From Squalus acanthias (lineage: Eukaryota): a stretch of 64,000 nt of DNA. Position 1 is the first letter of the stretch. Every line of letters starts with the position of its first letter. Under the pieces are notes generated by a model. That model ran no database searches. It was not told the origin of the DNA and saw nothing but the letters and a program-made list of their open reading frames with translations. The translations under genes and the position numbers were made by a program. Positions 5,345-63,199 of this stretch are shown piece by piece. The stretch is taken from positions 54,872,001 to 54,936,000 of the forward strand of contig CM059432.1 of the NCBI GenBank assembly GCA_030390025.1. The letters are read 5' to 3'.

Positions 5345-5740
5345 GCTGGCAGCAATCTCTCTTCTGGTTCAGAAGGTTCCGGGTTCAAATTCCATTCTAG
5401 GATTTTCACATAATTTAAGATGGCACTTCAGTCTAATACTGAGTGACTGCTGCATTGTCACTGCTGTTCAAATGAGACATGAGGGAAATTAGATTGTCTG
5501 CCTGTTCAGGTGGTCATGATGCGGAGATGCCGGTGTTGGACTGGGGTGGACAAAAATGAGAAGTCGCACAACACCAGGTTATAGTCCAACAGTTTTATTT
5601 GAAATCAGGTGGGCATTGTAGATTCCATGGCACTATCCAAAGAGCAGGGAGTTTGTCCAATGGTTTAGCTAACACTCATCCTTCAGTCATCACCAAAAAC
5701 ATATCTGGTCATTCATCTCATTGCTGTTTGTGGAAATTTG
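5345..5740 (+). mobile_element. tRNA-derived DeuSINE-like SINE interrupted by a Penelope tail
   Basis: B-box-like ggttcaaat; body similar to the other SINE copies; insertion at 5518-5604. Confidence 0.55.
5518..5604 (-). mobile_element. 87-bp Penelope 3'-end insertion (family A)
   Basis: Near-identical to 60457-60543; flanked by a 12-bp TSD tcaggtggtcat / tcaggtgggcat. Confidence 0.85.
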
Positions 5741-8365: not shown

Positions 8366-8369
8366 CTTA

Positions 8370-10645: not shown

Positions 10646-10792
<147 letters not shown>

Positions 10793-10849
10793 TAAATAAT
10801 CCAGAAGCCTTACAATTATACAGGAGCTTTTGTAAAGAAAATGGTGAAT

Positions 10850-13293: not shown

Positions 13294-13295
13294 TA

Positions 13296-15612: not shown

Positions 15613-15762
15613 GTGCGTACTCCCTTTCAATAAGAGATTGGGATGAAGTAAAAGGTGATAATGTCAAACACTACAAAATCAGAAAACTTGACAGCGGTGG
15701 TTATTACATTACAACAAGAGCACAGTTCGAGTCACTACAGAAGCTGGTGAAACACTACACAG
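15613..15762 (+). CDS. YES1: YES1 SH2 second exon (exon 6 equivalent)
   Basis: cag|GT...G|gtacc; 150 bp; [49 protein letters not shown]. Confidence 0.96.
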
Positions 15763-16423: not shown

Positions 16424-16633
<210 letters not shown>

Positions 16634-16655
16634 TAGTCCCATTTTTTTTAAAATA

Positions 16656-17978
16656 CAGTGAAACCTATAAATTACAGACACCTTAGGGACTGGCATAAGT
16701 TGTCCTTTTTTTTTGCAGGTGTCCTATTTTCAAAATGGTCATTGTATATACTGTTTAAAAAAAATAAAATTCCCAACAATCTTGAATAACCAGCTGAGAT
16801 TATGATCACCTAATCAGCTGCAACAATGCTAAGAATCCCCCTCCCGCACACCAGCGTTCAGCGCTGTTTACTTAACAGTTTTGCAGTCTACATTCCCATT
16901 TAATTTCAAAATGCTTTCACTTGGAGCAGTGTGTAACTTCAGTAATGAACTGTGTTTCTCAGTTCTACTTGGCAGCATTAGGGAAGTCACAGGACAAAAA
17001 AGGGGGAAATATGATGACAGGTTGTGCTTATTGAAGCTTCCAAAGACAAGCCTTAGAATGGATTGAGAACAATTGGGAAGGAAAACACAACAGGTCACAT
17101 TATGTGTAGGAGTGAAACTGCAGTTTTCTGGTTTAGCAGTGAGTGCAGGAAGACTGACTGATAGCTGGGACTCTCAGGCCTGTCCATCACTCTATAGAGC
17201 AGCAGACACACCCAGGACAGCCAGCCACCTTCACTCCAAAGCCAAAGCTCCTCAAAACAGATCCACCATTAGTAGCTGAGGGAAAGAAGACAATGGCAGG
17301 GTCAGAGGGAGAGGAACTGCCAACAGCCACTGAAATAGTGTATGGACGTAGTGCCGAGGCAGGAATGGACGGCCCCTCGCGCTGTCGCACATGCTTTCCT
17401 TGATTCGGGAGGCTGGTGAGGTCAGTACATGCAGGTCAGTGAGAGGCAGCAGCGGGTTTTGTGAAAGAAATGGCTTTTGTCAAAAGGGGAGTTCTTTATC
17501 CAGCATCCATAACGGCAGAGAAAGCGATCTATCCCTGCGATAGAGCCGTGCAACCATTCAATCCCAGAGATAGAGCAGTTTCTCTGCCGCTATGGATACT
17601 GGGTAAAGAGCTCCTCATTCCACAAAAGCTGTTTTTCACAAAACCTGCCGTCACTTCACGCTGACTTGCGTGCACTGACCTCATGGAAGTGATGGGCCCA
17701 AGAGAATTTGAGGGAAGAAAGGAAGCAAGCTGCAAGGGGCAGCACCAGTGATCACGACTCAGTGAAAGTTCCAGATACAGCAGCTTTGCTACAGGCTGTG
17801 CACCATGTTTTAAGTTGTAAAAGGGCTTGGTGCATTGAAGGCTGTCCGTAGTTCGTAATTTGCCAGTGTCCGTGGTTTCAGAGTGCCTCTTGTATATTTT
17901 ATTATGCAAGTTATTTGGGTCTCTCAATAAGTCTCTTTTTTGCAGGTGTCTGAGTTTCCGTTTATATAGGTTTCACTG
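16656..17978. mobile_element. Tigger-like non-autonomous DNA transposon, 1.3 kb
   Basis: 14-bp perfect TIR cagtgaaacctata; TA TSD; repeated subterminal motif ttttttgcaggtgtc. Confidence 0.8.
17417..17683. repeat. Imperfect long palindrome with ~125-bp arms
   Basis: tgaggtcagtacatgcaggtcag...tccataacggcagagaaa pairs with tttctctgccgctatgga...ctgacttgcgtgcactgacctca. Confidence 0.8.
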
Positions 17979-18272
17979 TACAATCTATGTTCAGGGAAAC
18001 ACCAAACAAACTTTACTGTTAAATCAATTCAAACGTGTTTCAGAAAATGTATTAAACTTGCTGCAATATTACTATTGCTTTTCAGTAGTGCATTTCTCAA
18101 TTACAGCACTCATTTTATGGTTAGTAATTGAAGATGATATGGTTGAAATGTTTGGTTACAGTTTTGTTCATGCAAAGAGAATTGTTTATTTAGCTAATTT
18201 CTTCTCCAGGTACAACACAAAATCCCTGTTTTAAGTTGGGAGAGGTAAAGAATTAGTACAACTGACTTCTGA

Positions 18273-18500
<228 letters not shown>

Positions 18501-18889
18501 TAGATTATTTGTAAATGACTGTCTTGTAAAACTGCTACAGTAAGTATGCATACACTATTGCACATGAAGCTTTGGTGTACTTGGGCACCAAGTGAATTCC
18601 AATTGAACACGAAGGACCCTAGTGCAATGCACATTTCTTCTTTTGTTCTTTGTATGTTCTTTATATATTTTAAAATATTTTTAGTTAAATTGATCTCTTC
18701 CTGTCACTGGTAAGGGGGGAAAAAGTTTTTAGATGAATAGAATCTGAAATAGACAGCAATAAAATATTTCTGCAGTTGACACCCAAAGTAAGGAACTGAA
18801 AAGATCCTGTAACAGAAATTAAGGGAAGAAAGAAAGAAGTTGCATTTATAAAAGACTTCATCACCAAGTTATCCGTTTTTGGTGATGTT

Positions 18890-21160
18890 ACATAAATAGG
18901 GGCAGGAGCAGGCCATTTGGCCCCTCGAGCCAGCTCCGCCAATCAATAAGATCATGGCTGATCTGGTCTTGGCCTCAACTCAATTTCCTGCCCGCTCCCC
19001 ATAACCCTTGACTCCCTTATCGTTCAAAAATCTATCTATCTCCACCTTTAATATATTCAATGACCCAGCCTCCACAGCTCTCTGGGGTAGAGAATTTCAA
19101 AGATTCACAACCCTCTGAGAGAAGAAATTCCTCCTCATCTCCATTTTAAATGGGCGACCCCTTATTCTGAAACTATACCCCCTAGTTCTCTGAATCTACC
19201 CTGTCAAGCCCCCTCAGAATCTTATATGTTTCAATAAGATCACCTCTCATTCTTCTAAACTCCAATGAGTATAGGCTCAACCTTTCCTCATAAGACAACC
19301 CCTTCAACTCAGGAATCAACCTAGTGAACCTTCTCTGAACTGCCTCCAATGCAAGTATATCCCACCTTAAATAAGGAGACCAAAACTGTACGCAGTACTC
19401 CAGGTGTGGTCTCACCTACACCCTGTACAGTTGCAGCAAGACTTCCCTACTTTTATACTCCATCCCCCTTGCAATAAAGGCCAATATTCCATTTGCCTTC
19501 CTAATTACTTGCTGTACCTGCATGCTAACTTTGTGTTTCATGTACAAGGACACCCAGATCCCTCTGTCCACAGCATTTTGTAGTCTCTCTCCATTTAAGT
19601 AATAATTTGCTTTTTTATTTTTCCTACCAAAGTGGATAACCTCACATTTTCCCACATTATACTCCATCTGCCAAATTTTTGCCCACTCACTTAACCTATC
19701 TATATCCCTTTGCAGATTCTTTGTGTCCTCTTCACAACTTGCTTTCCCACCTATCTTTGTATCATCAGCAAATTTGGCTACATTACACTCGGTCCCTTCA
19801 TCCAAGTCATTAATATAGATTGTAAACAGCTGAGACCCCAGCACTGATCCCTGTGGCACCCCACTAGTTACAGTTTGCCAACCTGAAAATGACCCATTTA
19901 TCCCGACTTTCTGTTAGTTAGCCAATCCTCTATCCATGCTAATATATTACCCCCAACCCCGTGAGCTCTTATGTTGTGCAGTAACCTTTTATATGGCACC
20001 TTATCGAATGCCTTCTGGAAATCCAAATACACTACATCTACTGGTTCCCCTTTATCCACCCTGCTCGTTACATCCTCAAAGAACTCTAGCCAATTTGTCA
20101 AACATGATTTCCCTTTCATAAAACCATGCTGACTCTGCTTGACTGTATTATGATTTTCTAAATGTCCTGCTACTACTACTTCCTTAATAATGGACTCCAG
20201 CATTTTTCCAATGACAGATGTTAGGCTAACTGGTCTATACTTTACTGCTTTCTGTCTCCCTCCTTTCTTGAGTAGGGGTGTTATATTTGCGGTTTTCTAA
20301 TCCACTGTGACCTCTCCAGAATCCAGGGAATTTTGGTAGATTAGAACCAATGCATCCACTATCTCTGCAGCCACTTCTTTTAAGACCCTAGGATGCAGGC
20401 CATCGGGTCCAGGGGACTTGTCCACCTTTAGTCCCATAAGTTTGCCTAGTACTTTTTCTCTAGTGATAGTGATTGCTTTAAGTTCCCCTCTCCCAATAGC
20501 CTCTTGATTATCTATTATTACTGGAATGCTTTTAGTGTCTTCTACCGTGAAGTCCGATACAAAATATTTGTTCAAAGTCTCTGCCATTTTGCTGTTTCCC
20601 ATTATTAATTCCCCAGTCTCATCCTCTAAGGGACCAACGCTTACTTTAGTTACTCTCTTCATTTTTATATACCTGTAGAAGCTCTTACTGTCTGTTTTTA
20701 TATTTCTTGCTAGTTTACTCTCATAATCTATCTTCTCTCTCTTTATTATTTTTTTAGTTGTCCTTTGCTGGTTTCTAAAAATTTTCCAATCCACTGGCCA
20801 ACCTCTAATCATCGCATCATTGTATGCCTTTGTTTTTAATTTGATACCATCCTTAACTTCCTTAGTAAGCCACAGATGGTTCATTCTTCTCTTGGAGTCT
20901 TTCTTTCTCACTGGAATATTTTTTTGCTGAGAGGTATGAAATATTTCCTTGAATGTCTGCCACAGCTTATCTACCATCTTACCCTTTAATCTGTTTTCCC
21001 AGTCCACTTTAGCCAACTCTGTCTTCATACTTTGTAATTGCCTTTATTTAAGTTCAGGACACTAGTTTGAGACCCAAGTTTCTCACCCTCAAACTGAATT
21101 AGAAATTCTAACATGCTATGATCACTGTTCCCTAGAGGATCCTTTACTATGAGATCATTA
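18890..21160 (-). mobile_element. CR1 (HER1-like) LINE, 5'-truncated, inserted into a SINE
   Basis: ORFs 20297-21028, 19898-20203, 19416-19859 (FADDTK) and 19182-19415; TSD atgtt; flanks rejoin into DeuSINE-like sequence. Confidence 0.94.
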
Positions 21161-27662: not shown

Positions 27663-28031
27663 ATAGTGTATAATGTGTCAGTCAGCATGGCCAACGCTTA
27701 CATCTCCTTTCCCTCTCGTGTCTGCCCAATGTCACCACACTGGTGCATTTCCCAAAGTGCAAGGGGTCACTTATAATTGCCATGTGCCCAACTTGAGCTC
27801 ATCCAGGGTTGTCGGTAAGTGACCAGGTTTGGATTTCAGTGCTTTGATGTGTGAAGCCAACAAAAAATATGCATGTGGTAAGGCTTTCAATTGTATGTTG
27901 CATCTTGACTGTATGCCCTACTGGAAATGCAAAGACACAGATGTAAAGTTGTGTAATGGATTATCATGGCAAACTGTAAATACGGAACAGGTTGATGAGC
28001 AACACTTTGTGGCATTAAATCTTGAGGCATT

Positions 28032-29564
28032 TAGGAACATAGGAACAGGAGTAGGCCATTCAGTCCCTCGAGCCTACTCCACCATTCAATGAGATCATGG
28101 CTGATCTACGACCTAACTCCATATACCCGCCTTTGGCCCATATCCCTTAATATCTTTGGTTAACAGAAAGCTATCAATCTCCAATTTAAAATTGACAATT
28201 GATCTGGCATCAATTGCTGTTTGCAGAAGAGAGTTCCAAACTTCTATCGCCCTTTGTGTGTAGAAGTGTTTCCTAATTTCACTCCTGAAAGGTCTGGCTC
28301 TAATTTTTAGACTATGCCCCCAAGTCCTAGAATCCCCAACCAGTGGAAATAGTTTCTCTCTACCCTATCTCTTCCCCTTAATATCTTGAAAACTTATATC
28401 CGATCACCCCTTAACCTTCTAAATTCCAGGGAATACAACCCTAATTTGTGCAATCTCTCCTCTTAACTTAACCCTTGAAGTCCGGGTATCATTCTTGTAA
28501 ACCTACGCTGCACTCCCTCCAACGCCAATATATCCTTCCTGAGGTCTGGTGCCCAGAACTGCTCGCAGTACTCCAGGTGTGGTCTAACCAGGGTTTTGTA
28601 TATCTGCAGCATAACTTCTACCCCCCTTGTATTCTAGTCCTCTAGATATAAAGGCCAGCATCCTATTAACCTTTTTGAATATTTTCTGTACCTGTTCATG
28701 ATATTTTAATGATCTATGTACCTGGACCCATTTCGAAAGTACCCTGTTCTATCCTTTTTAGGTCCAAAATGGATGACCTCACATTTGCCTACATTGAAAT
28801 CCATTTGCCACAGTTTTGCCCATTCACTTAATCTGTCGATATCCCTTTGTAATTTTATGCTTTCATCTACAATGCCACCTATCTTTGTGTCATCGTCAAA
28901 TTTGGATATATGACTTTCTATGCCATCATCTAAGTCATTAATAAATACTGTAAATAGTTGATGCCCCAACACAGATCCCTGCGGGACACCACTAGTCACC
29001 TCCTGCCAATTTGAGTACCTACCCATTATCCCTACTGCCTGTCTCCTGCCACTCAGCCAATTTCCTAACCAGGTCAATAACTTGCCCTCAATTCCGTGGG
29101 CTTCTACCTTAGTTAACAGTCTCTTATCTGGGACTTTATCAAATGCCTTCTGGAAGTCCATATAAATAACATCCATAGACATTCCCCTGTCCACTACTTT
29201 AGTCACCTCCTCAAAAAATTCAATCAGGTTTGTCAGGCATGACCTGCCTTTCACAAATCCATGCTGGCTCTCTCTGATCAACTGAAAATTTTCGAGGTGT
29301 TCAGTCACCCTATCCTTAATTATAGACTCTAGCAATTTCCTGACAACAGATGTTAGGCTAACTGGTTTCCCTCTCTCACATTTTTAAATAGCAGAGTGAC
29401 ATGTGCAATTTTCAAATCTAACGGAACGGTTCTTGAATCGAGAGAACTTTGGAAGATTATAGTTAGGACATCTGCAATGTCCTCACCTACTTCCTTTAAA
29501 ACCCTGGGATGGAAACCATCTGGTCCTGGGGATTTGTCACTCTTTAGTGCCATTATTTTCTTCA
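28032..29564 (-). mobile_element. CR1 LINE, 5'-truncated
   Basis: ORF 28706-29335 (209 aa [11 protein letters not shown]) and SPGPDGFHPRVLKE; taggaaca tail. Confidence 0.92.
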
Positions 29565-31361
29565 TACATGGTACTGTTGAATAGTCTTGCCAGATTGCTT
29601 AAAGTGTGCCATCTTCAGCCTATTCCATGTTCTGCAGATACAGTAGGCATTAGTGAGCATGCCTCCCCGTTCCTGGCAGGTGTGGTGAACAACTGTCGTC
29701 TGGGGATGTTGCCCTGGAGTTCTAAACAGGGCAGCCCTCTTCACATCCACCTCCTACAGCAGTATGTCCACTTTGCCAGCCATCAAGCAAGGGGGTCAGT
29801 GGTCGTGCCGCTGCACCATTTTCCCATCAACTTGTTTCATCCCTCCCCGTTAGAGTTTCTGTCCTATCACTCGGCTGTTGCTTCTCCCTCCCACCATAAA
29901 GCCTTTGCAAAGGCTGAAGTGTGCCCAAAACAATTTTCAGTCTTTTAAAAGCCTTTGACATTTTTTAGCTGCATCTATTCACTTATTTAGCGTTAGAGAC
30001 TGCATTTCCTTAATTTTATGCAGGTTTTTAGGGCTATATGCTTGAAATATACTGTGGAGTTCCCTGCCCAAGTGATGACATGCACAGGGTGCATATTTAA
30101 ATGATATTTGAGCTGGCCTCACCATCTGGCAAGCCAACTCCTCATTCTACTAGCATGTGATTTGGAACTCATGCAACAGTTCCAGCAGCTTTTTAGCCAG
30201 GTTCTTGGTAGTCTTGCCATTGTCAGTACTGCTGTCATTCACTCCTGGCTTATTATAATTAAGGCTGTGCTTTTTTCATGGATGCCACAGCTCCATGATT
30301 TTAATGCTTAATCAAAAATCAACGGTCAGAGGTGGTGACTTTCATACTTTAGCAATATGTTTGTCTTTTCAGTCAGCCTGCTTGACCCTCTACCCTACTC
30401 CATGCTGCTCTCCAGTGTACTCCTACCAAGCCCAGTGCCAACTCTCCATCCCACCGCCGCCACAGATGAGAGTGAATGAATATTAAAAATATTCATTTCC
30501 AAAATAAAACTACCACCGCTTTCAGTTGGAGTGTGTGTGTCCTCCAGTCAGGACCCACAATACTGACTCTAGCATCAGCAGCAACTGGCTCAAGTGAAAG
30601 AGCCATTAAAGGCTCGGTTATAGCTTGAGCATGCCAACACCTCCAGTCCCTTTCTTTTTCTCTCTCTTCTCCCCATCCCATCACCCAACAGATTGGATTG
30701 CAGCCCCTATGGAATGCCACCAACCAGGAATAGCCACATTCTTTGCCACTTTAACAGTGGTGGGCAGAAAAGGGAGCAAATTATGCAAAAACAAAATAGT
30801 AAATATAGTTGCGCCAGTGCAGAGGCAGACAGGCTATGTGCTCCATTGGATGCTCCCTCCTAGTTGTTTGATCACTTGATTCTCTTTGTATCACTTTCAG
30901 GTATAATTAAAGTTATTCATGACTGTTCGGAATTTTTACTGGCTTCCATGACTTAACATTTTTTAACTAAATAATCCATTTTCCCAAAAAATTTACCATG
31001 AACGGCTCTACCATTTGCGAGCTATAAGGGTCCGCAGGCCCACAATTGTAACTCACTCAAACCACAAGGACGGATGGTGTAGGAAATGTGAAAATTCACA
31101 TTGCTGCATTGTGAGGAGCTATTCTGAGAGTAGCAGGACACGTTTTTGGGTCAGAATAGATGAGCTTTGTTGTACATCTGGCCCAAGTTATAGGAGTACT
31201 AGATGCTGACTTCGAAAGCCAAAAATGAAAAACTGTTCCATTCTATAGGGGAGGATGATCTCACTGCCAGATGAGGTTGTGGTGTGATTATGACAGATGT
31301 GCCACAATTTCCATGGCAGTACCACTGCAGACTGGATGTGTGAATAAAATCTAAATGGAAC

Positions 31362-31718: not shown

Positions 31719-32254
31719 GTTAGAAAATTCATATCGCATAGCAGAAGTGTGTAGTGGAATGTAAATGAAGGCCACAAGCTAAGAGCTGAGTCTCTGGGGC
31801 TCACTGATGTTGAAATAGTCCATTGAATGATTTCAGAAGCTAATTGGACCAATTTGCCAGCGTCTACCCTTTGAGTCATAACCCCAAAATGTAGTCTGTG
31901 CAGACAATGTGAAAAAAATATTCAAGTCGCAATGTTTGAGTTGGGTAGTTAAAATGATGGTTGTTACAATTGTCTTGCATAAAAATAATTCCTAACCAAA
32001 AATAGTTTTCAGGAGTTAAATCCAATCCAGACTCTCAAAAGCTATCAGAGAATTCCATTTTAAGGGTTCTACATAAAATCTACACAGCCTGAATTTAGTT
32101 TCTATTTAACAGATTCACAGTACAGGTTTGTCATCACTACAGTAGGTACTTAAAAAAATCACTCATCTGTTTTTATTCTGGATAAAGGATGGGAAAAGTT
32201 TTTAATTTAATAGAGATACAAGTCATTTGCTAATTGTTCAAACATTCTCCACAG

Positions 32255-32463
32255 GTATGGTGAACAGGGAAGTTCTGGAGCAAGTGGAAAGGGGCTACAG
32301 AATGCCTTGCCCTCAGGGATGCCCAGAGTCTCTCCATGAGCTCATGAAACAGTGTTGGAAGAAGGATCCAGATGAAAGACCAACATTCGAATATATACAG
32401 TCCTTCCTAGAAGACTACTTTACTGCTACAGAGCCCCAGTACCAACCTGGAGATAATCTATAA
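32255..32463 (+). CDS. YES1: YES1 last coding exon with the C-terminal inhibitory Tyr
   Basis: cag|GT ATG GTG...TAA; 209 bp; [68 protein letters not shown]. Confidence 0.97.
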
Positions 32464-42262: not shown

Positions 42263-43722
42263 GAAACATAGAAAACATAGAAACATAGAAGATAGGAGCA
42301 GGAGTAGGCCATTCGGCCCCTCGAGCCTGCTCCGCCATTCGATGAGATCATGGCTGATCATCCAAACTCAGTACCCTGTCGCTGCCTTCTCCCCATATCC
42401 CTTGATCCCTTTAGCCTTAATGAATATATCTAACTCCTTCTTGAATATATTTACTGACTTGGCCTCAACTGCCTTCTGTGGTAGAGAATTCCACAGGTTC
42501 ACCACTCTCTGGGTGAAGAAATTCCTCCTCATCTCTGTCCTAAATGGCTTACCCCTTATTTTTAGACAGTGACCTCTTGTTCTGGACTCACCCGCCATCG
42601 GGAACATCCTTCCTGCATCCAGTCTGTCTAGCCCTGTTAGAATTTTATAAGTTTCAATGAGATCTCCTCTCATTCTTCTAAACTCCAGCGAGTATAAGCC
42701 CAATCGACCCAATCTCTCCTCGTACGTCATTCCTGCCATCCCAGGTATCAGTCTGATGAATCTTCGCTGCACTCCCTCCATGGCAAGAACATCCTTCCTC
42801 AGATAAGGTGACCAAAACTGCACACAATACTCAAGGTGTGGGCTCACCAAGGTCCTGTACAGCTGCAGCAAGACATCCCTGTTCCTGTACTCGAACCCTC
42901 TTGCTACGAAGGCCAACATACCATTTGCCTTCTTAACTGCCTGCTGTACCTGCATGCTTACCTTCAGCCACTGGTGCACAAGGACACCCAGAACTCGTTG
43001 CACTTCCCCTTCTCCCAATCTATTGCCGTTCAGATAATAATCTGCCTTTCTGTTTTTGCCACCAAAGTGGATAACCTCGCATTTATCCACATTATACTGC
43101 ATCTGCCATGCTTTTGCCCAATCACCCAACCTGTCCAAATCATACTGGAGTTTCTCGGCATCCTCCTCACAGCACACACGCCCACCCAGCTTTGTGTCAT
43201 CTGCAAACTTGGAGATATTACATCTAGTTCCCTCGTCTAGATCATTAATATATATTGTGAATAGCTGGGGTCCTAGGACCGATCCCTGCGGAACCCCACT
43301 AGTCACTGCCTGCCACTCGGAAAAAGACCCGTTTATTCCAACTCTTTGCTTCCTGTCTGCCAACCAGTTCTCTATCCAAGTCAGTACCTTGCCCCCCAAT
43401 CCCATGTGCCTTAACTTTACACGCTAATCTCTTATGCGGGACCTTATCGAAAGCCTTCTGAAAGTCCAAATACACCACATCCACTGGTTCTCCCTTATCT
43501 GTTCTATCAGTTACATCCTCAAAAAATTCCAGTAGATTAGTCAAGCACGATTTGCCTTTTGTAAATCCATGTTGACTTTGTCCGATCCTGTCACTGTTTT
43601 CCAAGTGCTCTGCTATTACATCTTTTATAATGGACTCTAGCATTTTCCCCACAACCAATGTCAGGCTTACTGGTCTATAATTCCCCGTTTTTTCTTTACC
43701 ACCTTTTTTGAACAGTGGAGTG
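42263..43722 (-). mobile_element. Young CR1 (HER1-like) LINE, 5'-truncated
   Basis: Open 345-aa RT C-terminal ORF 42368-43405 plus upstream RT in another frame; gaaacata tail repeats. Confidence 0.95.
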
Positions 43723-44291
43723 TTCTTATCTATTGCGGAGCCTGTTTTACTGGACAACAGGTATGTAATCTTGTCTTCCTCTCCCTTTTCCAGGGCATCC
43801 ATGATAAAATAGGGCAACATCCTGGCTCCACAAAAATGAAGCATTGAAAAAGTTTTAATGGAAGGCCTCAAAAGGACTTAAAAGTCCTTAAAAGGGCCGC
43901 TGCTAAGGCGGTTGAAGACCCGGAACAACTGCACGGTGCATGCATTGCCCACTTTCTCACCAATTTCGCATTGTGGTCCTAAAGCCAATGTTAGGACGCT
44001 GATTTGCATATTCAAGGTGCCTAACACCAATTTCAGGTGGGTGCCTTGCACACCTGTAAGTCACCAGCTTCCAATTTGGCAGTCATCACACTTCCAGAGG
44101 AGATCGGGTGCGAGAGATTACAACCCAAAATTAGTCCCTACAACCTTAACTTTTCACCCAAAAACTGGTGAAACGAGGTTGAATTTCTCTCCCATTGAAT
44201 CAAGTTAGGCTGGGATATGAGTGAGGCTGGTTCTTAACTTTTTGTGTACTTTAACAAAAAGGAGTCAATGCCAAGATAAAACTTAGACATT

Positions 44292-46603
44292 GGCCTAGAA
44301 ATTCGAGTAGGCCGGAAACCAGCCAGTGCCATCATGGGCCGATATTAACGGCCGCCCGCAATAATAGCGCAGGCAGCACTGATATTTTGTTGCTGCTTGC
44401 TGATTAACGTTAGCGCAGCACAGAACCTGTAGTGCAACACTTTTTTTCCGGCAGTAGTCTCAGCAGGAGGTCCAATGTAGCGTGGCCGTAGCGACCCTGG
44501 AGCAAGGCCACGTTCTCTTAAAGCTAGCCTGTCATTGAAGAAAGCACTGTCGATCCCTTAAAGGGGAACTGCCGTCTAAAATGAAAACAATAAAAATCAT
44601 TTAAAAATAGGCAGTCTTTAGCTGTTAGAGCTCACCTGCCTTCTGAAAAAAAAATTAAAATAATTCCGAAATGGCAGTCTTCAGCTCTTAAAGCTGAACT
44701 GCCTTCCACACATAAAAAAATGGTTAAAGTGTTTCAGCACTAACACAAATGGCTCAACAAGCCAAGGAAAGGGCACCCAGGGTCTCGCACGCAGCACTCC
44801 AGCTTTATGCAAGGGGTCAACCCTGCAAGAGAGGTCCTCTACCCACAGGGCCCAGGAGGCCCTCCAGAAAGAAGGATGTGGGACCAGATCACCGAGGCCA
44901 TCACAGCCAGCAGTGTCGCCTCCACAACCTGGCTCCAGTGCCCAAAGAAGCTTCATGACCTCAGACCAGTGGTCAAGGTCAGTGAATGTATCTTCAAAAG
45001 CCGTCTCCTACCAACTGCTCCACTAGCCTCACACACTGCTCAATGCACAACCCCCCCCACCCCCATCACTCACCTACCAACAATCTGTGCCAAACACGAG
45101 GCACACCTCACATTCCTAGCTTCACCTCACCCCCTTGGAGGAGACGGTGCAGGCCATTCTTGGCAGGGGCATGGCTGAGCCCTTGGCCAGTGGTGGGGCT
45201 GAAAAGGATACAAGATGCTGGTATCCTCATACATTATCCTCCTTCTCACATCCCACTTCCCCCTCATCCCACAATCTCTTCTGATTTACAAGGTGCACAT
45301 GGTGTAAGCATGCACCTCTTGCTTTCCCGCCCTCCCCTCACAACTTTAACCTTGTGCCTTCCTCATTTCACACACACAAGACATTCAGCCTGCCCAGCCA
45401 GTGGTTGACCAAGAAGAGGGAGAGGAGAGTGAAGAAGAAGAGGAAACACCGTCACTCGATTTCACACTCCCAGCCACCAGCTCCTCAAGGCCGTCCTGCA
45501 AATCCATCTGCAGTGTCCCCCACTGAAAGTCAGCAGCCTTTCACCAGCCATGCTGCAGCCACTGGGGTAACACTGCATGAGATCACTAGGATAGGCAAAG
45601 GCAGATGTAAGTCAGTCACTAAGGGAATGCATGAGGGAGATTAGTTGATTTCTTAATGTCATATTGAATAAAGTTGGATTGGAAAGGTTGCTTTGTGGTG
45701 GCTTTTATTTCAGCATTGTGGCCAAGAGGACACTGTGATGGTCAGTAACAGAGGGAAGGTAAGGTGTGGGACTAATGTTGAAAGGGGAATTGGGGTTGTG
45801 GTCACTGCTATTGCAGGCAGATGATTCCATCCCAGATATCCTGGCCAGAAAAGGGGTGTCTGGGTTGCATCCTTCCTTCCGCTTCCTCCTCTTCTGCATC
45901 TTTCTCTTCTGCTTCTTCCTCTTCTTCTGCTTCCTCCTCTTCTCGTCTTCCTTTTCTGCCTTTTCTTCTTCCCTCTGCGAGCGGATACTGGAAATCTGAA
46001 ATAAAAGCAGAAAATGCTGGAAGTACTCAGCAGGTCAGGCAGCATCTTGACCTGAAACATTAACTCTGTTTCTCTCTCCACAGATGCTACCTGACCTGCT
46101 GAGTATTTCCAGCATTTTCTGTCTTCTCAGAGGCCTTCCTTTACCATCCAAAGCTTTGCAAGCATCCAGCAACACTCCCTGCACTACCTGCACACTTAAA
46201 AAAACTTTTAACATGTATTGCACAAAGCCACAACTTCAATAAAATATTTTTAAAAGTCCAAAATCTTAAATCCAAAATTACCTGAAAGATGCGTGTGTCC
46301 CTTTAAGAAGCACTGACAACATCTCTGCAGGGCTGCTTCACGAACGCTTTTCTGTGCATGCTTAGGACCCGGAGTTATGGAGTGCGAAAACGTCCAAATT
46401 GGCAGTTGTGGCGTCAAGTCAGGCGTTGCATGTCAATTGATGTCACGATCTGCTAATTTACATTTCAGGGACCAGCGCTGTCAACGGCAGTGCTATGGCC
46501 CTTACCAAAATGGCGGCTGCCATGTCCCCCACCGGAGGCAGCCGCTATTTTTTCCAGAGAACCAGCGTTAATGGCCGGCTCTCACGTAAGGAATTTTTAG
46601 GCC
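44292..46603. mobile_element. Internally deleted PIF/Harbinger element: Myb/SANT gene remnant (+) convergent with the transposase 3' end (-)
   Basis: TIRs ggcctagaaattc / gaatttttaggcc; ERAPRVSHAAL...REVLYP...MWDQITEAI...TTWLQCPKKLHDL; acidic poly-E tail on the minus strand at ~45800-45970. Confidence 0.78.
45981..46122. mobile_element. Miniature inverted Penelope 3'-end insertion (family B)
   Basis: Two oppositely oriented pieces of the 57338-57460 terminus forming a hairpin (cagaaaatgctggaa...agcatct / agatgcta...ttccagcattttctg). Confidence 0.8.
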
Positions 46604-49529: not shown

Positions 49530-51275
49530 ATTAAAGGAGGAGGAAGAGAAGGAGGAATGGAGGAGGCAGGCAGCAGATCCCCGTTCCAGACGGGCTGTCC
49601 GTGAGCGCCTCAGGATTTTCAGAAGACATTCGATAAGGTGCCACACAAGAGGTTATTAAACAAAATTAGGGCTCATGGGATTGGGGGTAATATACTAGCA
49701 TGGATTGAGGATTGGTTAACGGACAGAAAACAGAGAGTAGGAATAAATGGGTCATTTTCGGGTTGGCAGGCTGTAACTAGTAGGGTACCGCAAGGATCAG
49801 TGCTTGGGCCTCAGCTATTCACAATCTACATCAATGATTTGGATGAGGGGACCAAATGTAATATATCCAAGTTTGCTGATGATACAAAGCTGGGTGGGAA
49901 TGTAAGTTGTGAGGAGGATGCAAGGAGGCTTCAAGGGGTTATAGACAGGCTAAGTGAGTGGGCAAGAACATGGCAAATGGAATATAATGTGGAGAAATGT
50001 GAAGTTATCCACTTTGGTAAGAAAAATAGAAAAGCAGAGTATTTTTTAAATGGTGAGAGATTGGGAAATGTTGGTGTTCAGAGGGACCTGGGTGTCCTTG
50101 TACACGAATCACTGGTACAGCAAGCAATTAGGAAAGCAAATGGTATGTTGGCCTTTGTTACAAGAGGATTTGAGTATAAGAGTAAAGACATCTTACTGCA
50201 ATTATATAGGGCCCTGGTGAGACCACACCTGGAATATTGTGTATAGTTTTGGTCTCCTTACCTAAGGAAGGATATACTTGCCATAGAGGGAGTGCAACGA
50301 AGGTTTACCAGACTGGTTCTTGGGATGGGGGGATTGTCCTATGAGGACAGATTGAGTAGACTAGGCCTATATTCTCTAGAGTTTAAAAGAATGAGAGACA
50401 ATCTCATTGAAACATAGAAAATTCTTACAGGGTTGACAGGGTAGATGCAGGGAGGATGTTTTCCCTGGCTGGGAAGTCTAGAACCAGGGGCCACAGTCTC
50501 AGAATAAGGGGTCGGCCATTTAGGACTGAGATGAGGAGAAATTTCTTCACTCAGAGGGTGGTGAATCTTTGGAATTCTCTACCCCAGAGGGCTGTGGAGG
50601 CTCGGCCGTTGAGTATATTCATGACAGAGATCGATAGATTTTTGAATATTAAGGGAATCAAGGGATATGGGGAGAGTGCAGGAAAGTGGAGATGAGGAAG
50701 AAGATCAGCCATGATCTTATTGAATGGCGGAGCAGGCTCGAAGGGCCAAATGGCCTACTCCTGCTCCAATTTCTTATGTTCATCAGAATCCGGTTCCCCT
50801 AAATGAAACCCCAGATCCCTGTTGCTCACCACTTCCCAACCTTACCATCCCTCTGTCACGGAGCATCACAGCGTCCTCCTGGGCACAAAGCTGAAATGAG
50901 AGCCACCACAAAATAACCATTCCAAACATAATTTATAAATTAATCAATCCAAAACTACATAACAAAGTCAACTAATCACCCTTCTGCATTCCCTTAGTGT
51001 CTGTCTTTCGTGTTCCTTTGCCTATCCTAGTGCTCCTACACAGTGCTACCCCAGTGGCTGCAGCATGGCTGGTGGAAGGCTGCAGACTTTCTTGGGGAGA
51101 CTTCAGATGACCTTGCTGGATGACCTCAAGCAGCTCAGGGCCTAGAAGACCCGGCTGTAGACTGCACCACCTCGGCATGGGCATCAGCAGTCTGGGCTGG
51201 CTGGCTGACAGGCAGCAGCAAGGGGACTTGGCGGAGTGGCAGGGGTGGGAGTACGACAAAGCACCTCCCCTTTAA
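49530..51275. mobile_element. Harbinger remnant split by a CR1 insertion
   Basis: Removing the CR1 restores EEEEKEEWRRQAADPRSRRAVRERLIRIRFP* (transposase-like C-terminus); 50810-51100 is the reverse complement of a 45520-45780-like segment. Confidence 0.62.
49613..50781 (+). mobile_element. CR1 LINE, 5'-truncated
   Basis: ORF 49638-50246 (202 aa RT, FADDTKL) and 50456-50695; CR1 tail. Confidence 0.93.
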
Positions 51276-51410
51276 AAAGTGCAGAGAGCCTAGGTGAAGT
51301 TTTATTGGCCAGTAGACTCCACCCAATATTGAGTGCTGAGCCAAACTGCAGTGCATTTAACACTGAGCTCGGTACTTCAATCATTATAATGAGCAGGCAG
51401 CACGAATTTT

Positions 51411-51841
51411 ACATAGAAACATAGAAACATAGAATCTAGGAGCAGGAGTAGGCCATTCGGCCCGTCGAGCCTGCTCCACCATTCAATACGATCATGGCTG
51501 ATCATCCAAATCCAGTACCCTGTCCCTGCTTTAATCCCCACAGTACACATATCCCACCCTACCCCCGTAACCCCACGTATTTAATTCCCCCTAACATATC
51601 CCATCCTATCCCCATAACCCCACATATTTAATCCCCCCCTAACACTAAGGGTCAATTTATCATAGCCAAATCAACCTAACCCGCACATTTTTGGACTGTG
51701 GGAGGAAACCGGAGCACCCGGAGGAAACCCACGCAGACACGGGGAGAATGTGCAAACTCCACACAGACAGTCACCCGAGGTCAAGATTCGAACCCGGGTC
51801 CCTGGCGCTGTGAGGCACCAGTGCTAACCACTATGCCACCG
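51411..51841 (-). mobile_element. HE1-like V-SINE with a CR1-derived 3' tail
   Basis: Minus-strand A box TGGCATAGTGG and B box GGTTCGAATC; V-domain tgcgtgggtttcctccgggtgctccggtttcctcccacagtccaaa; tail matches the CR1 ends at 6392 and 42263. Confidence 0.87.
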
Positions 51842-57161: not shown

Positions 57162-57337
57162 GCAGATTAACAGAAACGCCAGAGAAAGACCCAAATGGCT
57201 GTTTACCCCTTTTCACTGGGTTTTCACCAAACATCCGCTGAGGTTCTGGTGGGAGATCAGGAAATTCTACCCCATAGTGTAAATCCTGACCTGACTCCAG
57301 AGCACAATGGAGTGAGACTCCCGAGAAGACTCCCTAC

Positions 57338-59555
57338 AAAAGCAAAATACTGTGGATGCTGGAAATCTGAAATAAAAACAGAGAATACTGGAAATACTCA
57401 GCAGGTCAGGCAGCATCTGTGGCAAGAAAAACAGAGTTAATGTTTCAGGTTGATGACCCTTTGTCAGAACTGGAAAAAGTTAGAGATGTAACAGATTTTA
57501 AGCAAGTGCAGGGGCAGGGAAAGGGGGGAGGGGAGGAAAGAACAAAAGGGTAGGTCTGTGATAGGGTGGAAGGCAGGACAGATTAAAAGACAAAAGGGAT
57601 GATGGTGCAAGGCAAAAGGAGATGGTAATGGGACAAGTAAAGAAACAAAAGATGAGTCTAGAAGAGGTGTAAATGGAAATGGCAGAATCATCAACAGCTG
57701 CCATGTGAAAAAATAGGGGCAGAGGTTATGGTCTGAAATTGTTGAACTCGATGTTGAGTCCAGAAGGCTGTAAAGTGCCTAATCGAAAGATGAGATGCTG
57801 TTCCTCAAGCTTATGTTGAGCTTCGTTGGAACAGTGTAAGAGGCCGAGGATGGAGAGGTTAGAGTGGGAGTGGAGCAGAGAGTTAAAGTGACAGGCGACC
57901 GGAAGCTCGGAGTCACGCTTATGGACTGAACGGAGGTGTTCCGCAAAGCGGTCACCCAATCTGCATTTGGTCTCCCCAATGTAGAGGAGACCGCATCGTG
58001 AGCAATGAATACAGTATACGAAATTGCAAGAAGTACAAGTAAATCGCTGTTTCATCTGGAAGGAGTGTATGGGGCCCTGGACGGTGGGAAGGGAGGAGGT
58101 AAAAAGACAGGTGTTGCATCTCCTGCGCTTGCACGGGAAGGTGCCGTGGGAAGGGGTGTTGGGGGTGATAGAGGAGTGGACTAGGGTGTCGCGGAGGGAG
58201 CGGTCCCTACGGAATGCTGAAAGGGGAGGGGAGGGGAAGATGTGTTTGGTGGTGGGATCATGCTGGAGGTGGCGGAAATTGCGGAGGATGATCCATTGAA
58301 TATGGATGCTGGTGGGGTGAAAGGTGAGGACAAGGGGAACCCTATCGTGGTTCTGGGAGGGAGGGGAAGGGGTGAGAGCAGAAGTGCGGGAAATAGAATG
58401 GACACGGTCAAGGGCCGTGTCAACCAGGGTAGAGAGGAATCCTCGGTTGAGGTAAAAGGAAGACAAGTATGGAAGGTGGCATCGTCAGAGCAGATGCGAC
58501 GGAAACGGAGAAACTGGGAGAATGGAACAGAGTTCTTACAGGAAGCGGGGTGAGAGGAAGTGTAGTCCAGGAAGCTGTGGGAGTCAGTGGGCTTATAGTG
58601 GATGTTGGTCGGTAGCCTATCCCCAGAAATGGAGACAGAGAAGTTGAGGAAGAGAAGGGAAGAGTCAGAGATGGACCATGTGAAGGTGAGGGAAGGGTGG
58701 AAATTGGAAGCAAAGTGAATGAAATTTTCTAGTTCAGGGTGAGAGCAGGAAACGGTACCGATACAGTCATCAATGTACCGGAAAAAGAGGTGAGGGAAGG
58801 GACCTGAGTAGGACTGGAACAAAGAGTGTTCCACATATTCCATGAAAAGGCAGGCATAGCTAGGACCCATGCGGGTTCCAATAGAAACACCTTTAATTTG
58901 GAGGAAGTGAGTGGAGTCAAAGGAGAAGTTGTTCAATGTGAGAACAAGTTCAGCCAGGTAGCAGAGGGTGGTGGTGGATGGGGACTGGCTGGACCTCTGT
59001 TCAAGGAACAAGCGGAGTGCCATTAGGCCATCCTGGTGGGGGATGGAGGTGTAGAGGGATTGGATGTCCATAGTGAAAAGGAGACGGTTAGGGCAAGGAA
59101 ACTGGAAATTCTTGAAGTGGCGGAGGGCGTCGGAAGAGTCGCGGATGTAGGTGGGAAGAGACTGGACAAGGGGAGAAAAAATAGAGTCAAGAAAAGAAGA
59201 AATCAGTTCTGTGGGGCAGGAACAAGCTGAAACGATGGGTCTACCAGGGCAGTCCTGTTTGTGGATCTTGGGAAGGAGGTAGAAGCAGGCTGTGCGGGGT
59301 TGGGAGACTATGAGGTTGGCGGCCGTGGGGGGGAAGATCTCCAGAGAAGATGAGGTCAGTCACAGTCTTGGAAACGATGGCTTGATGTTCGGTAGTGGGG
59401 GCATGGTCCAGGGGGAGGTAGGAGGAGGTGTCAGAGAGTTGGCGTTCAGCCTCCGCAAGGTAGAGGTTGGTTCACCAAACAACAGCAGCGCCACCCTTGT
59501 CAGCGGGTTTAATGACAATGTTGGGGTTGGATCTGAGAGAACAGAGTGCTGCAAG
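57338..59555 (-). mobile_element. Penelope-like retroelement family B (RT plus GIY-YIG), 5'-truncated and frameshifted
   Basis: ORF 58181-59071 MDIQSLYTSIP...GTRMGP...FRYIDD; ORF 57726-58466 VYCIHCSRCGLLYIGET...RFAEH...GLN. Confidence 0.92.
57435..57471 (-). ncRNA. Degenerate minimal hammerhead ribozyme motif in the Penelope B 3' region
   Basis: Minus strand AGTT-CTGACAA-AGGGTCATCAACCT-GAAA-CATT-AACT; core G8 and the stem III palindrome are mutated. Confidence 0.6.
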
Positions 59556-60543
59556 TTCTGTTTGACTGCATCCCTTAGGCCTCCTGGACCTGGAGTTAAT
59601 TTAAATATTTAGACAGTGTGGATGATGGTGCTCCCAAGGTCTTAACATTTACACTTTAACTGCCAGGAGAGGAAATTCGTGTGCACAGAGCTCTCTCCTG
59701 GGGCAGCAGAACTTCACCCAGGCTGTGTAAATAGAGTAGTGGCTGGCTGAAACCTTAACTGCAGCTACCAGTCTCAGACCAGTCACAACTTAAATGAACC
59801 CTAACAAATTCCTTAAAGTGAACTGTGCATCCCACAATGCCTACTCCAGTGGATTGCAGAAAAGGCGCAACCACTGGAGGGGATGAGGTGAACACGTGTC
59901 TCCCCAAATCTTCTTCAAATGGGTTATAGCTCCCTCTCTCCATCCTCCAAAACCCAGAATTGTCCTTGATACCCCCCCTGTAAGACATGCGGAATTACCC
60001 CTCGCCCCGTCCAACAGGTTATAGAGTTCGGACTTGAGACTTATGAGAAATGACACCAGACACACGGGTTCTGTTTTTAACCTTTTATTGTTCCTAAGAC
60101 AGATTCAAAACCCCAACCACTATTCGAGCAGTCCACCAATAATATTACAGGAAATCATACATACAATCACCCGCCGATGATCCGTCCAGCGTTGATTGTA
60201 GGTCCTCGTAAGTGAAAAGACTGGCCAGGCCCCTCCTTCCGACTGCAGCCTGATCTCGTAGGTGAAATGATTGGCCCAGCCACCTTCTTCTGACTGCAGT
60301 GCCGATATTCTTTAGCCACTGTGTTTTATACAGCTTTCCTTGCCTTTTGCAGTAAATCAATCATTCAGAGATAGTGAAATGTTTCTTGAATGTTGGTCTG
60401 AGCTGTTTGAGCTGTCAAACGTTTACACTCACACATCCTGTGTGGTTTATCCTTATGATGCGGAGATGCCGGTGTTGGACTGGGGTGGACAAAAGTGAGA
60501 AGTCGCACAACACCAGGTTATAGTCCAACAGTTTTATTTGAAA

Positions 60544-60581
60544 TCACAAGCTTTCGGAGCGGCTGCTCCTTCGTCAGGTGA
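60544..60581 (-). ncRNA. Minimal type I hammerhead ribozyme motif (inverted copy)
   Basis: Exact reverse complement of 62097-62134. Confidence 0.8.
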
Positions 60582-62096
60582 AGTAAAGGAATACAAATCG
60601 ACAAAGCATATATAGATAGAGAACAATGCATGTGAAGCGTACAATGGCAGACGACTACATTTAATCCTCCTGACTGCCTTTCGTCACACCTCGGCAGATA
60701 AACAATCAGGTCAGCCAGGAAGGCACCACATCAAAGACATAGCAAGATACAACTGAGACAATGAGGTGGGGTTACAGGGGGTCTAATGTGTCAAAAGCTG
60801 CAGTCTGTATGGAAAACGATAAACTTTAACATTTTTACTTTTTTTTACTGGAAATCACATCTGTGAACAAGCCAACGACGACTTGAGTCTGGATGACTCT
60901 ACGTCATGTATCGTGACATGAACCCAAGATCCCGGTTGAGGCCGTTCTCATGAGTGCGGAACTTGGCTATCAGTTTCTGCCCGATGATTTTGCGTTGTCG
61001 TGTGTCTCTAAGGTCGCTGAAAAACGCCCTCGTAAGAACGGGATATGACGCTCGACTCATCGATCGACAGTTCCGACGGGCCACAGCGAAAAATCACATA
61101 GACCTCCTCAGAAGGCAAACACGGGACACAACCAACAGGGTACCCTACGTCGTCCAGTACTTCCCCGGAGCGGAGAAACTACGCCATGTTCTTCGCAGCC
61201 TTCAACATGTCATCGATGACGACGAACACCTCGCTAAGGCCATCCCCACGCCTCCACTATTTGCCTTCAAACAGCCGCCTAACCTCAGAAGTACCATCGT
61301 TCGCAGAAAATTACCCAGCTTTCAGGATAACAGCGACCACGACACCACACAACCCTGCCACGGCAACCTCTGCAAGACATGCCAGATCATCAACACAGAT
61401 ACCATCATCACACGTGAGGACACTACCCACCAGGTACATGGTACATATTCATGTGACTCGGCCAACGTTGTCTACCTGATACGTTGCAGGAAAGGTTGCC
61501 CCAGAGCATAGTACATCGGCGAGACCATGCAGACACTGAGAGAACGTATGAACGGACACTGCGCAACAATCGCCAGGCAGGAGTGTTCCCTCCCAGTCGG
61601 GGAACACTTCAGCAGTCAAGGACATTCAGCCTCGGATCTGCGGGTAAGCGTTCTCCGAGGCGGCCTTAAAGACACACGACAACGCAAAATCATCGAGCAG
61701 AAACTGATAGCCAAGTTCCGCACTCATGAGGACGGCCTCAACCGGGATCTTGGGTTCATGTCACGATACATGACGTAGAGTCATCCAGACTCGAGTCGTC
61801 GTTGGCTTGTTCACAGATGTGATTTCCAGTAAAAAAAAAGTAAACATTTTAAAGTTTAGCGTTTTCCATACAGACTGCAGCTTTTGACACATTAGACCCC
61901 CTGTAACCCCACCTCATTGTCTCAGTTGTATCTTGCTATGTCTTTGATGTGGTGCCTTCCTGGCTGACCTGATTGTTTATCTGCCGAGGTGTGATGAAAG
62001 GCAGTCAGGAGGATTAAATGTAGTCGTCTGCCATTGTACATTTCACATGCATTGTTCTCTATCTATATATGCTTTGTCGATTTGTATTCCTTTACT

Positions 62097-62134
62097 TCAC
62101 CTGACGAAGGAGCAGCCGCTCCGAAAGCTTGTGA
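62097..62134 (+). ncRNA. Minimal type I hammerhead ribozyme motif
   Basis: TCAC-CTGACGA-A-GGAGC agcc GCTCC-GAAA-GCTT-GTGA: stem I TCAC/GTGA, intact core, palindromic AGCT stem III. Confidence 0.8.
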
Positions 62135-63199
62135 TTTCAAATAAAACTGTTGGACTATAACCTGGTGTTGTGCGGCTTATCCTTATCACAGCCCAAAATT
62201 GTTCATTCACTCCTAAAGTTTACAAAGGTGGCAGAAAACCACTTGATTAGGTTCATGAGTTATGTCGTATTCTGCATTTCAAAACTTCAAAGGTTTGACT
62301 TCTCACCTCAGAAAAGTCATCAGAGACACGATGTCTACAATACTAAGGGAGTTTGTTTATCTCTGTTGTCTCTGACTACCCCCTGCAGTCACAACCATGT
62401 TTCCTGCCTTATCAGTGAAAGACTGCTTGTTACATTCACCAATTTTATTCCACTTTGTAAAACCTTTTTGCCTGGCAAAGCATTTCAAGAAATATTAAAA
62501 ATTAAGGGTCTGTATATACTTTCTACACCCCTGAACTCTAATATGATTGCATTGCTTCGATTGCGAGACCGAAGGTATGAACTCAGTCACCGTTTCACTT
62601 CCTTAGAAGATTGTTCACCAAAAAAATCTTAAAATAGAAATTAAAATATAACAAATTTTTAAGAGACACTTGTGGTATAAACAATATACAGATCAGGGTG
62701 ACGATGGTGAAAAATTCTCTGGATCTGTAGCAATTATAGGTTATGTGCCTGCAGTGCTTAGGTTTACTTTCTGTGAAACATCACTTTGAAATGGTCAGTG
62801 GTGAAGAATTGATATTTCAATTGTTTCATTGTTAATGTTTTTATTCTGTCAGTTTTTAATCATCTGAGCAGAATCACACAGGGCTGCTGAGAGACCTGTA
62901 AAATGCAGGGGCTGAATTGGTGCAGATTAAAAAGAGCAGGGTCTGTGGGAACAGTAAATACTATGGAAATTTGGGAAAATTGTCCAATAAAGGAGAGTTA
63001 AGACTCGTGACAAATATGTTCAAAAATGGTATTTAAGTTATACATTATTGCCAAACTCCTCAAAGTTTGTGCAGACTTAAATAATTTTCAAATCAATTTG
63101 TTGAATCGTACTGGAAAGTGCTTGTGTGGATCTCAGGTGAAGACTGGTTCAGGTTCAGCTGGAATGCCCTCTACAGTCTAAGACCCTGCCCACACCCAG

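What the first reader, a model, noticed from the sequence alone, without database searches (positions are those of the whole stretch)
62097..62134. Intact minimal hammerhead ribozyme on both strands of the Penelope arms
Seen: TCAC CTGACGA A GGAGC-agcc-GCTCC GAAA GCTT GTGA, with an identical mirror copy at 60544-60581. The catalytic core is complete, there is an extra A before stem II, and stem III is only the palindrome AGCT, so it can form only between two copies. The predicted cut is after CUU (62130), and AATAAA follows at 62140. Known: Penelope pseudo-LTRs carry minimal type I hammerheads thought to cleave as dimers. Inference: here each strand supplies only one sense copy, so cleavage would need trans-dimerisation and would compete with arm-to-arm pairing. 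This is the best candidate in the window for a functional non-coding system, though the general class is already described.
Basis: partly seen in the sequence, partly recalled or inferred. Interest (0 to 1): 0.7.

Follow-up and report, generated by a model that had tools for sequence, protein, structure and literature searches.

The report
Known hammerhead in dead Penelope copy
The motif is a real minimal hammerhead ribozyme sequence carried twice, back to back, in a broken copy of a shark Penelope-like jumping gene; this arrangement was described in 2014, and at this spot it is likely a passenger, though it sits right behind a predicted transcription start, which may be new.

Summary
Observation confirmed: a complete minimal type I hammerhead at 62097-62134 (+) and an identical mirror at 60544-60581 (-). 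Both lie in the arms of one 5'-truncated, head-to-head insertion of a shark Penelope-like element (Neptune-type linker, in-frame stop, 10-bp target duplication). The extra A, the G10.1-C11.1 pair, palindromic stem III and opposite-strand pairs are all in Cervera & De la Pena 2014; inverted arms and unequal tails are standard for these elements. Both arms run through the cut site, so their templates were uncut or re-ligated there. Cleavage is untested. One extra: a TATA box and initiator 30 nt apart put the predicted start (62094) three bases before the ribozyme; a second family in the window shows the same layout, and 4 of 12 displayed joints among family copies fall there, against 1 at the cut. 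The scan has already reported this family on other DNA of this genome, and 5'-end clustering at the ribozyme's upstream edge in another genome. Verdict: new member of a known kind, low interest.

The parts
62097..62134 (+). minimal type I hammerhead motif, right arm; predicted cut 62130/62131
60544..60581 (-). identical hammerhead motif, left (inverted) arm; predicted cut 60548/60547
60455..61017 (-). inverted 5'-truncated copy (563 bp): end of ORF, 3' UTR, promoter-like motifs, hammerhead, 93-nt tail ending at the likely start codon of the next ORF
   Evidence: family 3' ends cluster at 60453-60455
61015..62174 (+). sense 5'-truncated copy; 61660-62174 is the part repeated in the left arm (97.3%); ends 44 nt after the predicted cut
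61008..61778 (+). 3' part of the ORF: RT-EN linker with CX4CXXC, then GIY-YIG endonuclease with CCHH-type residues; in-frame stop at 61509-61511
   Evidence: 88-89% to residues 389-643 of P0001; GIY-YIG E 0.0011, below Pfam's cut-off
60447..60456 (+). target-site duplication, left copy (last 2 nt shared with the element end)
   Evidence: the 10-mer occurs twice in the window, at 60447 and 62177; 16 of 18 nt match when extended upstream
62177..62186 (+). target-site duplication, right copy
62064..62070 (+). TATA-like box 30 nt before the initiator A (mirror 60608-60614, -); predicted
62092..62098 (+). initiator-like YYANWYY, A+1 at 62094 (mirror 60584), 3 nt before stem I; predicted start site
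   Evidence: TATAWAW+Inr at -28..-32 occurs 8 times on both strands of the window, 2 of them at 62094 and 60584; joints at 60584-60586
62140..62172 (+). AATAAA (62140-62145) and a GU-rich stretch (62164-62172): possible poly(A) signal; predicted
   Evidence: sequence; function untested
5516..5607 (-). third family copy: 92-bp tail only, 1 difference from the left arm, starting 2-5 nt after the predicted cut; 8-bp duplication at 5506-5513 / 5605-5612

Best explanation
The two motifs are copies of the minimal hammerhead of a shark Penelope-like retroelement (Neptune-type), left in one broken head-to-head insertion, where they are likely passengers that rarely cut. Steps. (1) Shown: both flanks carry a 10-bp target duplication, both copies are 5'-truncated and point outward, and both run through the cut site, so the template RNA was uncut or re-ligated there. 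(2) Inferred from class knowledge: the element's endonuclease nicked both strands and its reverse transcriptase primed at two internal sites in the tail, giving arms that end 93 and 44 nt after the cut. (3) Inferred: in an intact source element the pLTR promoter starts RNA just before the ribozyme, and the RNA reaches the next pLTR, so two same-strand copies can pair in cis through stem I and AGCU. Cutting there is probably slow and protein-assisted, and would trim or circularise unit-length RNA. (4) Inferred: at this locus a read-through RNA would bury both motifs in arm-to-arm duplex, and outward RNAs carry one copy each and would need a partner from another locus.
For: Protein 89% identical to a shark RT-EN protein, 57-60% to metagenomic relatives. 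Inverted arms, duplication and junctions. Family is high-copy in 4 of 4 runs laid (2784-19333 contigs each); 3' ends cluster at 60453-60455 and 60486-60491, 31-38 nt apart, like the published 30-40-bp tail (PMC8557442 passage). Displayed variants inside the motif fall at position 17 (U to C), loop II and stem I pair 1.3; loose-end reads vary N7; 0 of 35 displayed variable positions hit the 13 invariant core bases. A second PLE family in the window has the same layout with different stems. All motif traits and opposite-strand pairs are in PMC4209133. An Anolis PLE primes on both strands at internal sites, uses uncut RNA, and its hammerhead needs protein (PMC11167929).
Against: No cleavage assay. 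Core conservation is not statistically shown: 0 of 35 has P=0.33 by chance, the motif as a whole has 3 variable positions against 3.05 expected, and 18 of 58 variant rows were hidden. In the nearest-neighbour model the active dimer (-21.7) is less stable than two monomers (-24.2) and than a mis-dimer through stem II (-30.7 kcal/mol); the model ignores core tertiary contacts. No full-length tandem copy of this family was seen here, so cis pairing rests on class knowledge. In a 2026 preprint 1 of 9 Xenopus dimers cleaved in vitro.
Confidence: 0.75

Rival explanations
1. One reading: this locus is itself an active switch in which trans-dimer cleavage competes with arm-to-arm pairing.
For: Both motifs are intact; a read-through RNA would bury them; outward RNAs would keep stems I and II; family RNA-like runs supply many possible partners ('RNA' is the tool's guess).
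Against: The copy is truncated and has a stop; intactness is expected by chance at this divergence (P=0.38); no transcript of the locus was shown; no listed piece spans the stretch; arm pairing does not arise in outward RNAs.
Confidence: 0.07
2. The motif cuts efficiently in vivo, and cut 3' products are themselves reverse-transcribed, so many family copies start at the cut site.
For: The tail-only copy at 5516-5607 starts 2-5 nt after the cut; one joint in run X1 starts exactly at 60547; summed depth over the tail is 8.5-41 times that upstream.
Against: 1 of 6 5' ends in the window (P 0.05-0.17); 1 of 12 displayed joints (P 0.22-0.54) against 4 at the initiator; no cut-site cluster among 24 displayed loose-end rows (656 hidden); no depth step between 60545 and 60548; summed contig depth is no copy number. 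The tail-only copy's duplication ends in the same 7 nt as the ribozyme's own 5' strand, so a skip across the folded motif explains it as well. No reads began at the cut in Anolis.
Confidence: 0.12
3. The motif is kept for something other than cutting: as part of the core promoter or 5' leader, or as a protein-binding or dimerising fold.
For: It starts 3 nt after a predicted initiator, where downstream promoter elements lie; Penelope of D. virilis has an internal promoter; Anolis catalytic mutants still insert in vitro; Naiad elements thrive without the motif; poor predicted dimer stability.
Against: Displayed variation follows catalytic rules (H at 17, free N7, free loop II); two families share the core with different stems; the Anolis motif cuts, with C3/G8 rescue.
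Confidence: 0.15

Closest known systems
Minimal hammerheads (min-HHR) of metazoan Penelope-like elements, Cervera & De la Pena 2014 (PMC4209133)
   Same: Type I, short helix I (4-5 bp), unpaired base between 9 and 10.1, G10.1-C11.1, palindromic 15.2-16.2, location in pLTRs, dual motifs on opposite strands, mostly in truncated copies; found in Xena, Poseidon and Neptune elements of fishes.
   Different: Stem II is 5 bp (7-8 bp in Schistosoma); the opposite-strand pair is 1.5 kb apart (100-700 bp there); no shark is named in the parts read; its supplementary alignments were not seen.
PAc (Poseidon of Anolis carolinensis), Frangieh et al. 2024 (PMC11167929)
   Same: Two internal priming sites that give a tail, both strands cut and extended, templates uncut at the hammerhead.
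   Different: There the ORF starts in stem II and priming is 111-118 nt or more into the ORF; here the likely start codon lies about 90 nt after the cut and ends cluster at it. The protein here has the Neptune-type CX4CXXC linker. PAc priming is reported as non-homologous; here the junctions show 2-6 nt of microhomology.
Penelope insertions with inverted pLTRs in Adineta vaga, Arkhipova et al. 2013 (PMC3846280)
   Same: Head-to-head inverted pLTR, 8-10-bp target duplication, optional tail, putative TATA box followed by an initiator-like TCACT.
   Different: The passages read do not relate the promoter to a hammerhead; the inner junction here has no palindrome, only about 3 nt of inferred microhomology.
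Animal non-LTR retrozymes (bioRxiv 10.64898/2026.07.22.740005)
   Same: Type I hammerheads related to PLE pLTRs; one chondrichthyan genome was positive.
   Different: Retrozymes are non-coding tandem repeats; this is a coding fragment in inverted, not tandem, form.

Membership tests
Minimal type I hammerhead of PLEs | Core CUGANGA ... GAAA ... UH in type I order with stems I and II | tested here: met
Minimal type I hammerhead of PLEs | Unpaired base between 9 and 10.1; G10.1-C11.1 pair; palindromic 15.2-16.2 | tested here: met
   A62108; G62109-C62122; AGCT 62126-62129 against the list
Minimal type I hammerhead of PLEs | Lies in the pLTR of a Penelope-like element | tested here: met
   318 nt after the stop of a GIY-YIG ORF
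Minimal type I hammerhead of PLEs | Core better conserved than flanks across copies | tested here: inconclusive
   0 of 35 displayed variable positions in the 13 core bases, P=0.33; changes at tolerant sites
Minimal type I hammerhead of PLEs | Self-cleavage as a dimer | not testable with these tools
   Only energies: active dimer -21.7, two monomers -24.2, mis-dimer -30.7 kcal/mol
Rfam hammerhead families | Match to a curated covariance model | tested here: not met
   No hammerhead hit at E<=10
EN+ Penelope-like element | RT followed by C-terminal GIY-YIG with two cysteines between GIY and YIG | tested here: met
   Fragment has the linker and endonuclease with CxxxC between the motifs (criterion); RT is absent from this copy but present in P0001, 89% identical
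EN+ Penelope-like element | 5' truncation, inverted pLTR, optional tail, short target duplication | tested here: met
   tail difference 49 nt here, 31-38 nt between family end clusters
Neptune clade | CX2-5CXXC motif in the RT-EN linker | tested here: met
   CX4CXXC in the translation; criterion from PMC8557442; Nematis shares it
Neptune clade | Placement in an RT tree with named Neptune references | not tested
   No named reference proteins were at hand
Penelope/Poseidon clade | No extra zinc-finger-like linker motif | tested here: not met
   The motif is present
Non-LTR retrozyme | Non-coding tandem units, each with a same-strand hammerhead | tested here: not met
   One copy per strand, coding fragment

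The most novel reading that the evidence does not exclude
In shark Neptune-type elements the hammerhead is the first thing transcribed: a TATA-initiator promoter starts capped RNA 3 nt before stem I, and a poly(A) signal follows the cut, so the pLTR works like a retroviral U3-R-U5 whose R region is the ribozyme. Each unit RNA would carry one copy at each end, pair them in cis, and lose cap and tail in one step to give a ligatable unit-length monomer. Genomic micro-copies would record both states: capped starts at the initiator (some with an extra G) and rarer starts at the cut.
Probability: 0.3. Interest if true: 0.5.

Novelty: new member of a known kind. Interest (0 to 1): 0.2.

Why it matters
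As found, it adds one more copy of a known and very abundant motif. The use lies in the family: what these hammerheads do in vivo is still open (PMC8557442 calls it unclear; in Anolis no RNA ends were seen at the cut). A young, high-copy shark family allows a purely computational test by mapping thousands of 5' junctions against the predicted start and cut sites. If the start-site layout holds, it explains how a dimer-only ribozyme finds its partner in cis.

Tried and rejected
No whole genome is held, so no genome-wide count was possible. Rfam: nothing relevant. A 21-nt tail pattern gave 0 hits in metagenome and viral contigs. A protein-alignment scan of metagenomes gave 2 loci at 47-48% identity from 62 candidates; by eye neither shows a hammerhead in the 112 nt (L001) and 524 nt (L002) held after the match, so they gave no conservation test. 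My first idea, that copies start at the cut site, was set aside as the main reading (see rival 2). Identity of the two arms as a sign of selection was rejected (P=0.38). My first label 'Poseidon' was dropped because of the linker motif. Summed contig depth was not used as copy number. Pieces ending at 60583-60584 in table 8 were not counted as 5' ends, because most family copies differ from the window at 60585, which can clip alignments; only joints were counted. Lunse et al. (dimer cleavage of PLE hammerheads) is not held; I saw only its title and a review's summary.

Full report
Observation. The motif is at 62097-62134 on the + strand as described, and 60544-60581 is its exact reverse complement. 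It has a 4-bp stem I, the core CUGACGA, one extra A, a 5-bp stem II opening with G10.1-C11.1, GAAA, the palindrome AGCU and U17, so the predicted cut is 62130/62131. A strict descriptor finds just these 2 sites in the window; 1 of 200 Markov-simulated windows gave any hit. Stems I and II form the minimum-energy fold. Rfam gives no hammerhead hit.

The element. The motif lies 318 nt after the stop of a reading frame that encodes the RT-EN linker and GIY-YIG endonuclease of a Penelope-like element, with one in-frame stop at 61509-61511. The fragment is 89% identical to an RT-EN protein annotated in a shark and 57-60% to metagenomic relatives (18 proteins from 940 candidates), so the window is likely from a cartilaginous fish. 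The linker holds CX4CXXC, the criterion for Neptune/Nematis rather than Penelope/Poseidon in PMC8557442; no tree was built. The insertion is head-to-head: an inverted 563-bp copy (60455-61017) joined to a sense copy (about 61015-62174); the shared 516 columns differ at 13. A 10-mer that occurs only twice in the window flanks it (60447, 62177), and 16 of 18 nt match when extended into the element end. The arms end 93 and 44 nt after the cut. Both run hundreds of bases upstream of the cut and on past it, so their templates were uncut or re-ligated there.

The family. Of 24 runs listed, 20 hold the stretch or part of it, 13 with half the words or more, across several organisms. I laid 4 of them on the left arm; 2784-19333 contigs fit per run. 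Loose 3' ends cluster at 60455 (129, 157 and 23 contigs in X1, X2, X10), 60453 (34), 60491 (41) and 60486 (22), that is two clusters 31-38 nt apart, as for the published 30-40-bp tail. Past 60455 the loose letters agree for only a few bases, which with the tail-only copy suggests that copies end just after an ATG; that this is the ORF start is inferred. Displayed variants in the motif are U17 to C (about 20% of summed depth in X1 and X2, 4-6% in X9 and X10), a change or deletion in loop II, and G1.3 to A, which would break one stem I pair unless compensated (not visible); loose-end reads show N7 as C, U or G. None of 35 displayed variable positions hits the 13 invariant bases, but this has P=0.33, and 18 of 58 rows were hidden.

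Dimer and arm pairing. In the nearest-neighbour model the active dimer scores -21.7 kcal/mol, two monomers -24.2 and a mis-dimer through stem II -30.7; core tertiary contacts are not modelled, but this fits the weak in vitro activity reported for the class. A read-through RNA of the whole insertion pairs all 38 motif bases with the mirror. RNAs begun just before the motif and reading outward keep stem II (0.85, 0.97) and partly stem I (0.3, 0.75). No transcript of this locus was shown. A Pfam scan of 113 of the 123 stop-to-stop frames of 85 aa or more (the 10 left out lie in the two PLEs) found host exons only for a Src-family kinase ending at 32463.

Where do copies start? A third copy (5516-5607, -) is tail only and starts 2-5 nt after the cut, which first suggested a fossil of cleavage. 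This did not hold up as the main reading: it is 1 of 6 5' ends in the window (P 0.05-0.17), its target duplication ends in the same 7 nt as the ribozyme's 5' strand so that a skip across the folded motif fits too, none of the 24 displayed loose-end rows (656 hidden) clusters at the cut, and depth shows no step there. An earlier scan note (e1-7858714, another genome) said that micro-copies start at the upstream edge instead. My data agree: of 12 distinct displayed joints, 4 have a side at 60584-60586 (P 1e-5 to 1e-3 against uniform placement) and 1 at 60547, the base after the cut (P 0.22-0.54) (one row hidden; the orientation of the two strand-switch joints is my inference from their side lengths). 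Position 60584 mirrors 62094, the A of a YYANWYY initiator 30 nt after TATATAT. That pairing occurs 8 times on both strands of the window, 2 of them here, so chance within 5 nt is about 5e-4. The second PLE family in the window has TTAAAA 30 nt before an initiator A that directly precedes its decayed hammerhead (motif chosen after the fact, chance about 1e-3). One joint has an extra G before 62094, as a cap would leave (my knowledge of LINE 5' ends; a single contig, and the cut-site joint has an extra G too). AATAAA and a GU-rich stretch follow the cut. These are consensus matches, not a mapped start or end.

Mechanism. Most likely (0.75) the motifs are passengers in a dead copy. The insertion arose by priming on both nicked strands at internal tail sites of uncut RNA (structure shown, steps inferred from PAc). 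The motif's work, if any, is done in source elements, where two same-strand copies pair in cis and cut slowly or with protein help (inferred). Rivals: the locus as an active trans-dimer switch (0.07), efficient cutting with copies starting at the cut (0.12), a non-catalytic role (0.15). These are not exclusive of the first in every part.

What is known. PMC11167929 (parts 1-2 of 4) shows two-site internal priming on both strands, a protein-assisted hammerhead, uncut RNA as main template and no RNA ends at the cut. PMC3846280 (passages) describes inverted pLTRs, tails, duplications and a TATA plus initiator in the pLTR. PMC8557442 (introduction and passages) gives the clade criterion and calls the motif's function unclear. 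PMC2377424 (passages) reports a TATA-less internal promoter in D. virilis. PMC6765202 and PMC8782182 were seen as passages. The 2026 preprint (parts 1 and 3 of 5 and passages) finds retrozymes in one chondrichthyan and cleavage in 1 of 9 dimers. Lunse et al. was seen only as a title and through a review. I found no paper on shark PLE hammerheads (4 listings, none on topic by title) or on a start site directly before the motif (0 papers; listings only), in a library limited to open-licence papers; supplementary alignments of the 2014 paper and the preprint, not seen, may hold shark motifs. Earlier scan notes on this genome (e1-7857333, e1-7790103) reached the same verdict for this kind of repeat; they are leads, not support.

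Verdict. Real, well formed, and a new member of a known kind; interest 0.2. The boldest reading left open is that the ribozyme forms the R region of an LTR-like repeat, first in the capped RNA and present at both ends of each unit transcript (probability 0.3, interest 0.5); a genome-wide map of 5' junctions and CAGE would settle it.

Noticed in passing
window 57326-59615 (-); motif 57436-57470: A second, unrelated Neptune-type PLE (RT + CX4CXXC + GIY-YIG, frameshifted) with a decayed minimal hammerhead (G8 and the stem III palindrome changed, both consistent with CpG decay); TTAAAA lies 30 nt before an initiator A at 57471, one base before stem I.
   Followed up: partly
window 45983-46125: 143-bp head-to-head micro-insertion of that second family: one arm starts inside stem II, 11 nt before the cut, the other 21 nt after it; no clear target duplication by eye.
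   Followed up: partly
window 5506-5612: The 8-bp target duplication of the tail-only copy ends in the same 7 nt as the ribozyme's own 5' strand (62098-62104); cleaved template, stall at stem I or skip across the folded motif all fit.
   Followed up: partly
window about 15600-15760 and 32250-32463 (+): Exons of a Src-family tyrosine kinase gene (SH2 exon; last kinase exon with stop; best PDB matches Fyn and Src; 'Yes-like' is my recall).
   Followed up: partly
P0007, P0011, P0012, P0014-P0018: Several annotated shark host proteins (septin 5a, XRCC5, PPP1R12A-like and others) contain pieces of this element's ORF, and P0011 also translated UTR near the hammerhead: likely annotation artefacts or exonisation.
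   Followed up: no
left-arm coordinates 60684-60731: A joint going back from 60731 to 60684 with 8 added letters is present in runs X1 (depth 203) and X10: a subfamily with a roughly 50-bp internal duplication in the UTR.
   Followed up: no
window 6393-13600, 18900-21000, 28000-29900, 42270-44200, 49600-51530: Many old RT-bearing LINE fragments in both orientations make up most repeats of the window.
   Followed up: no
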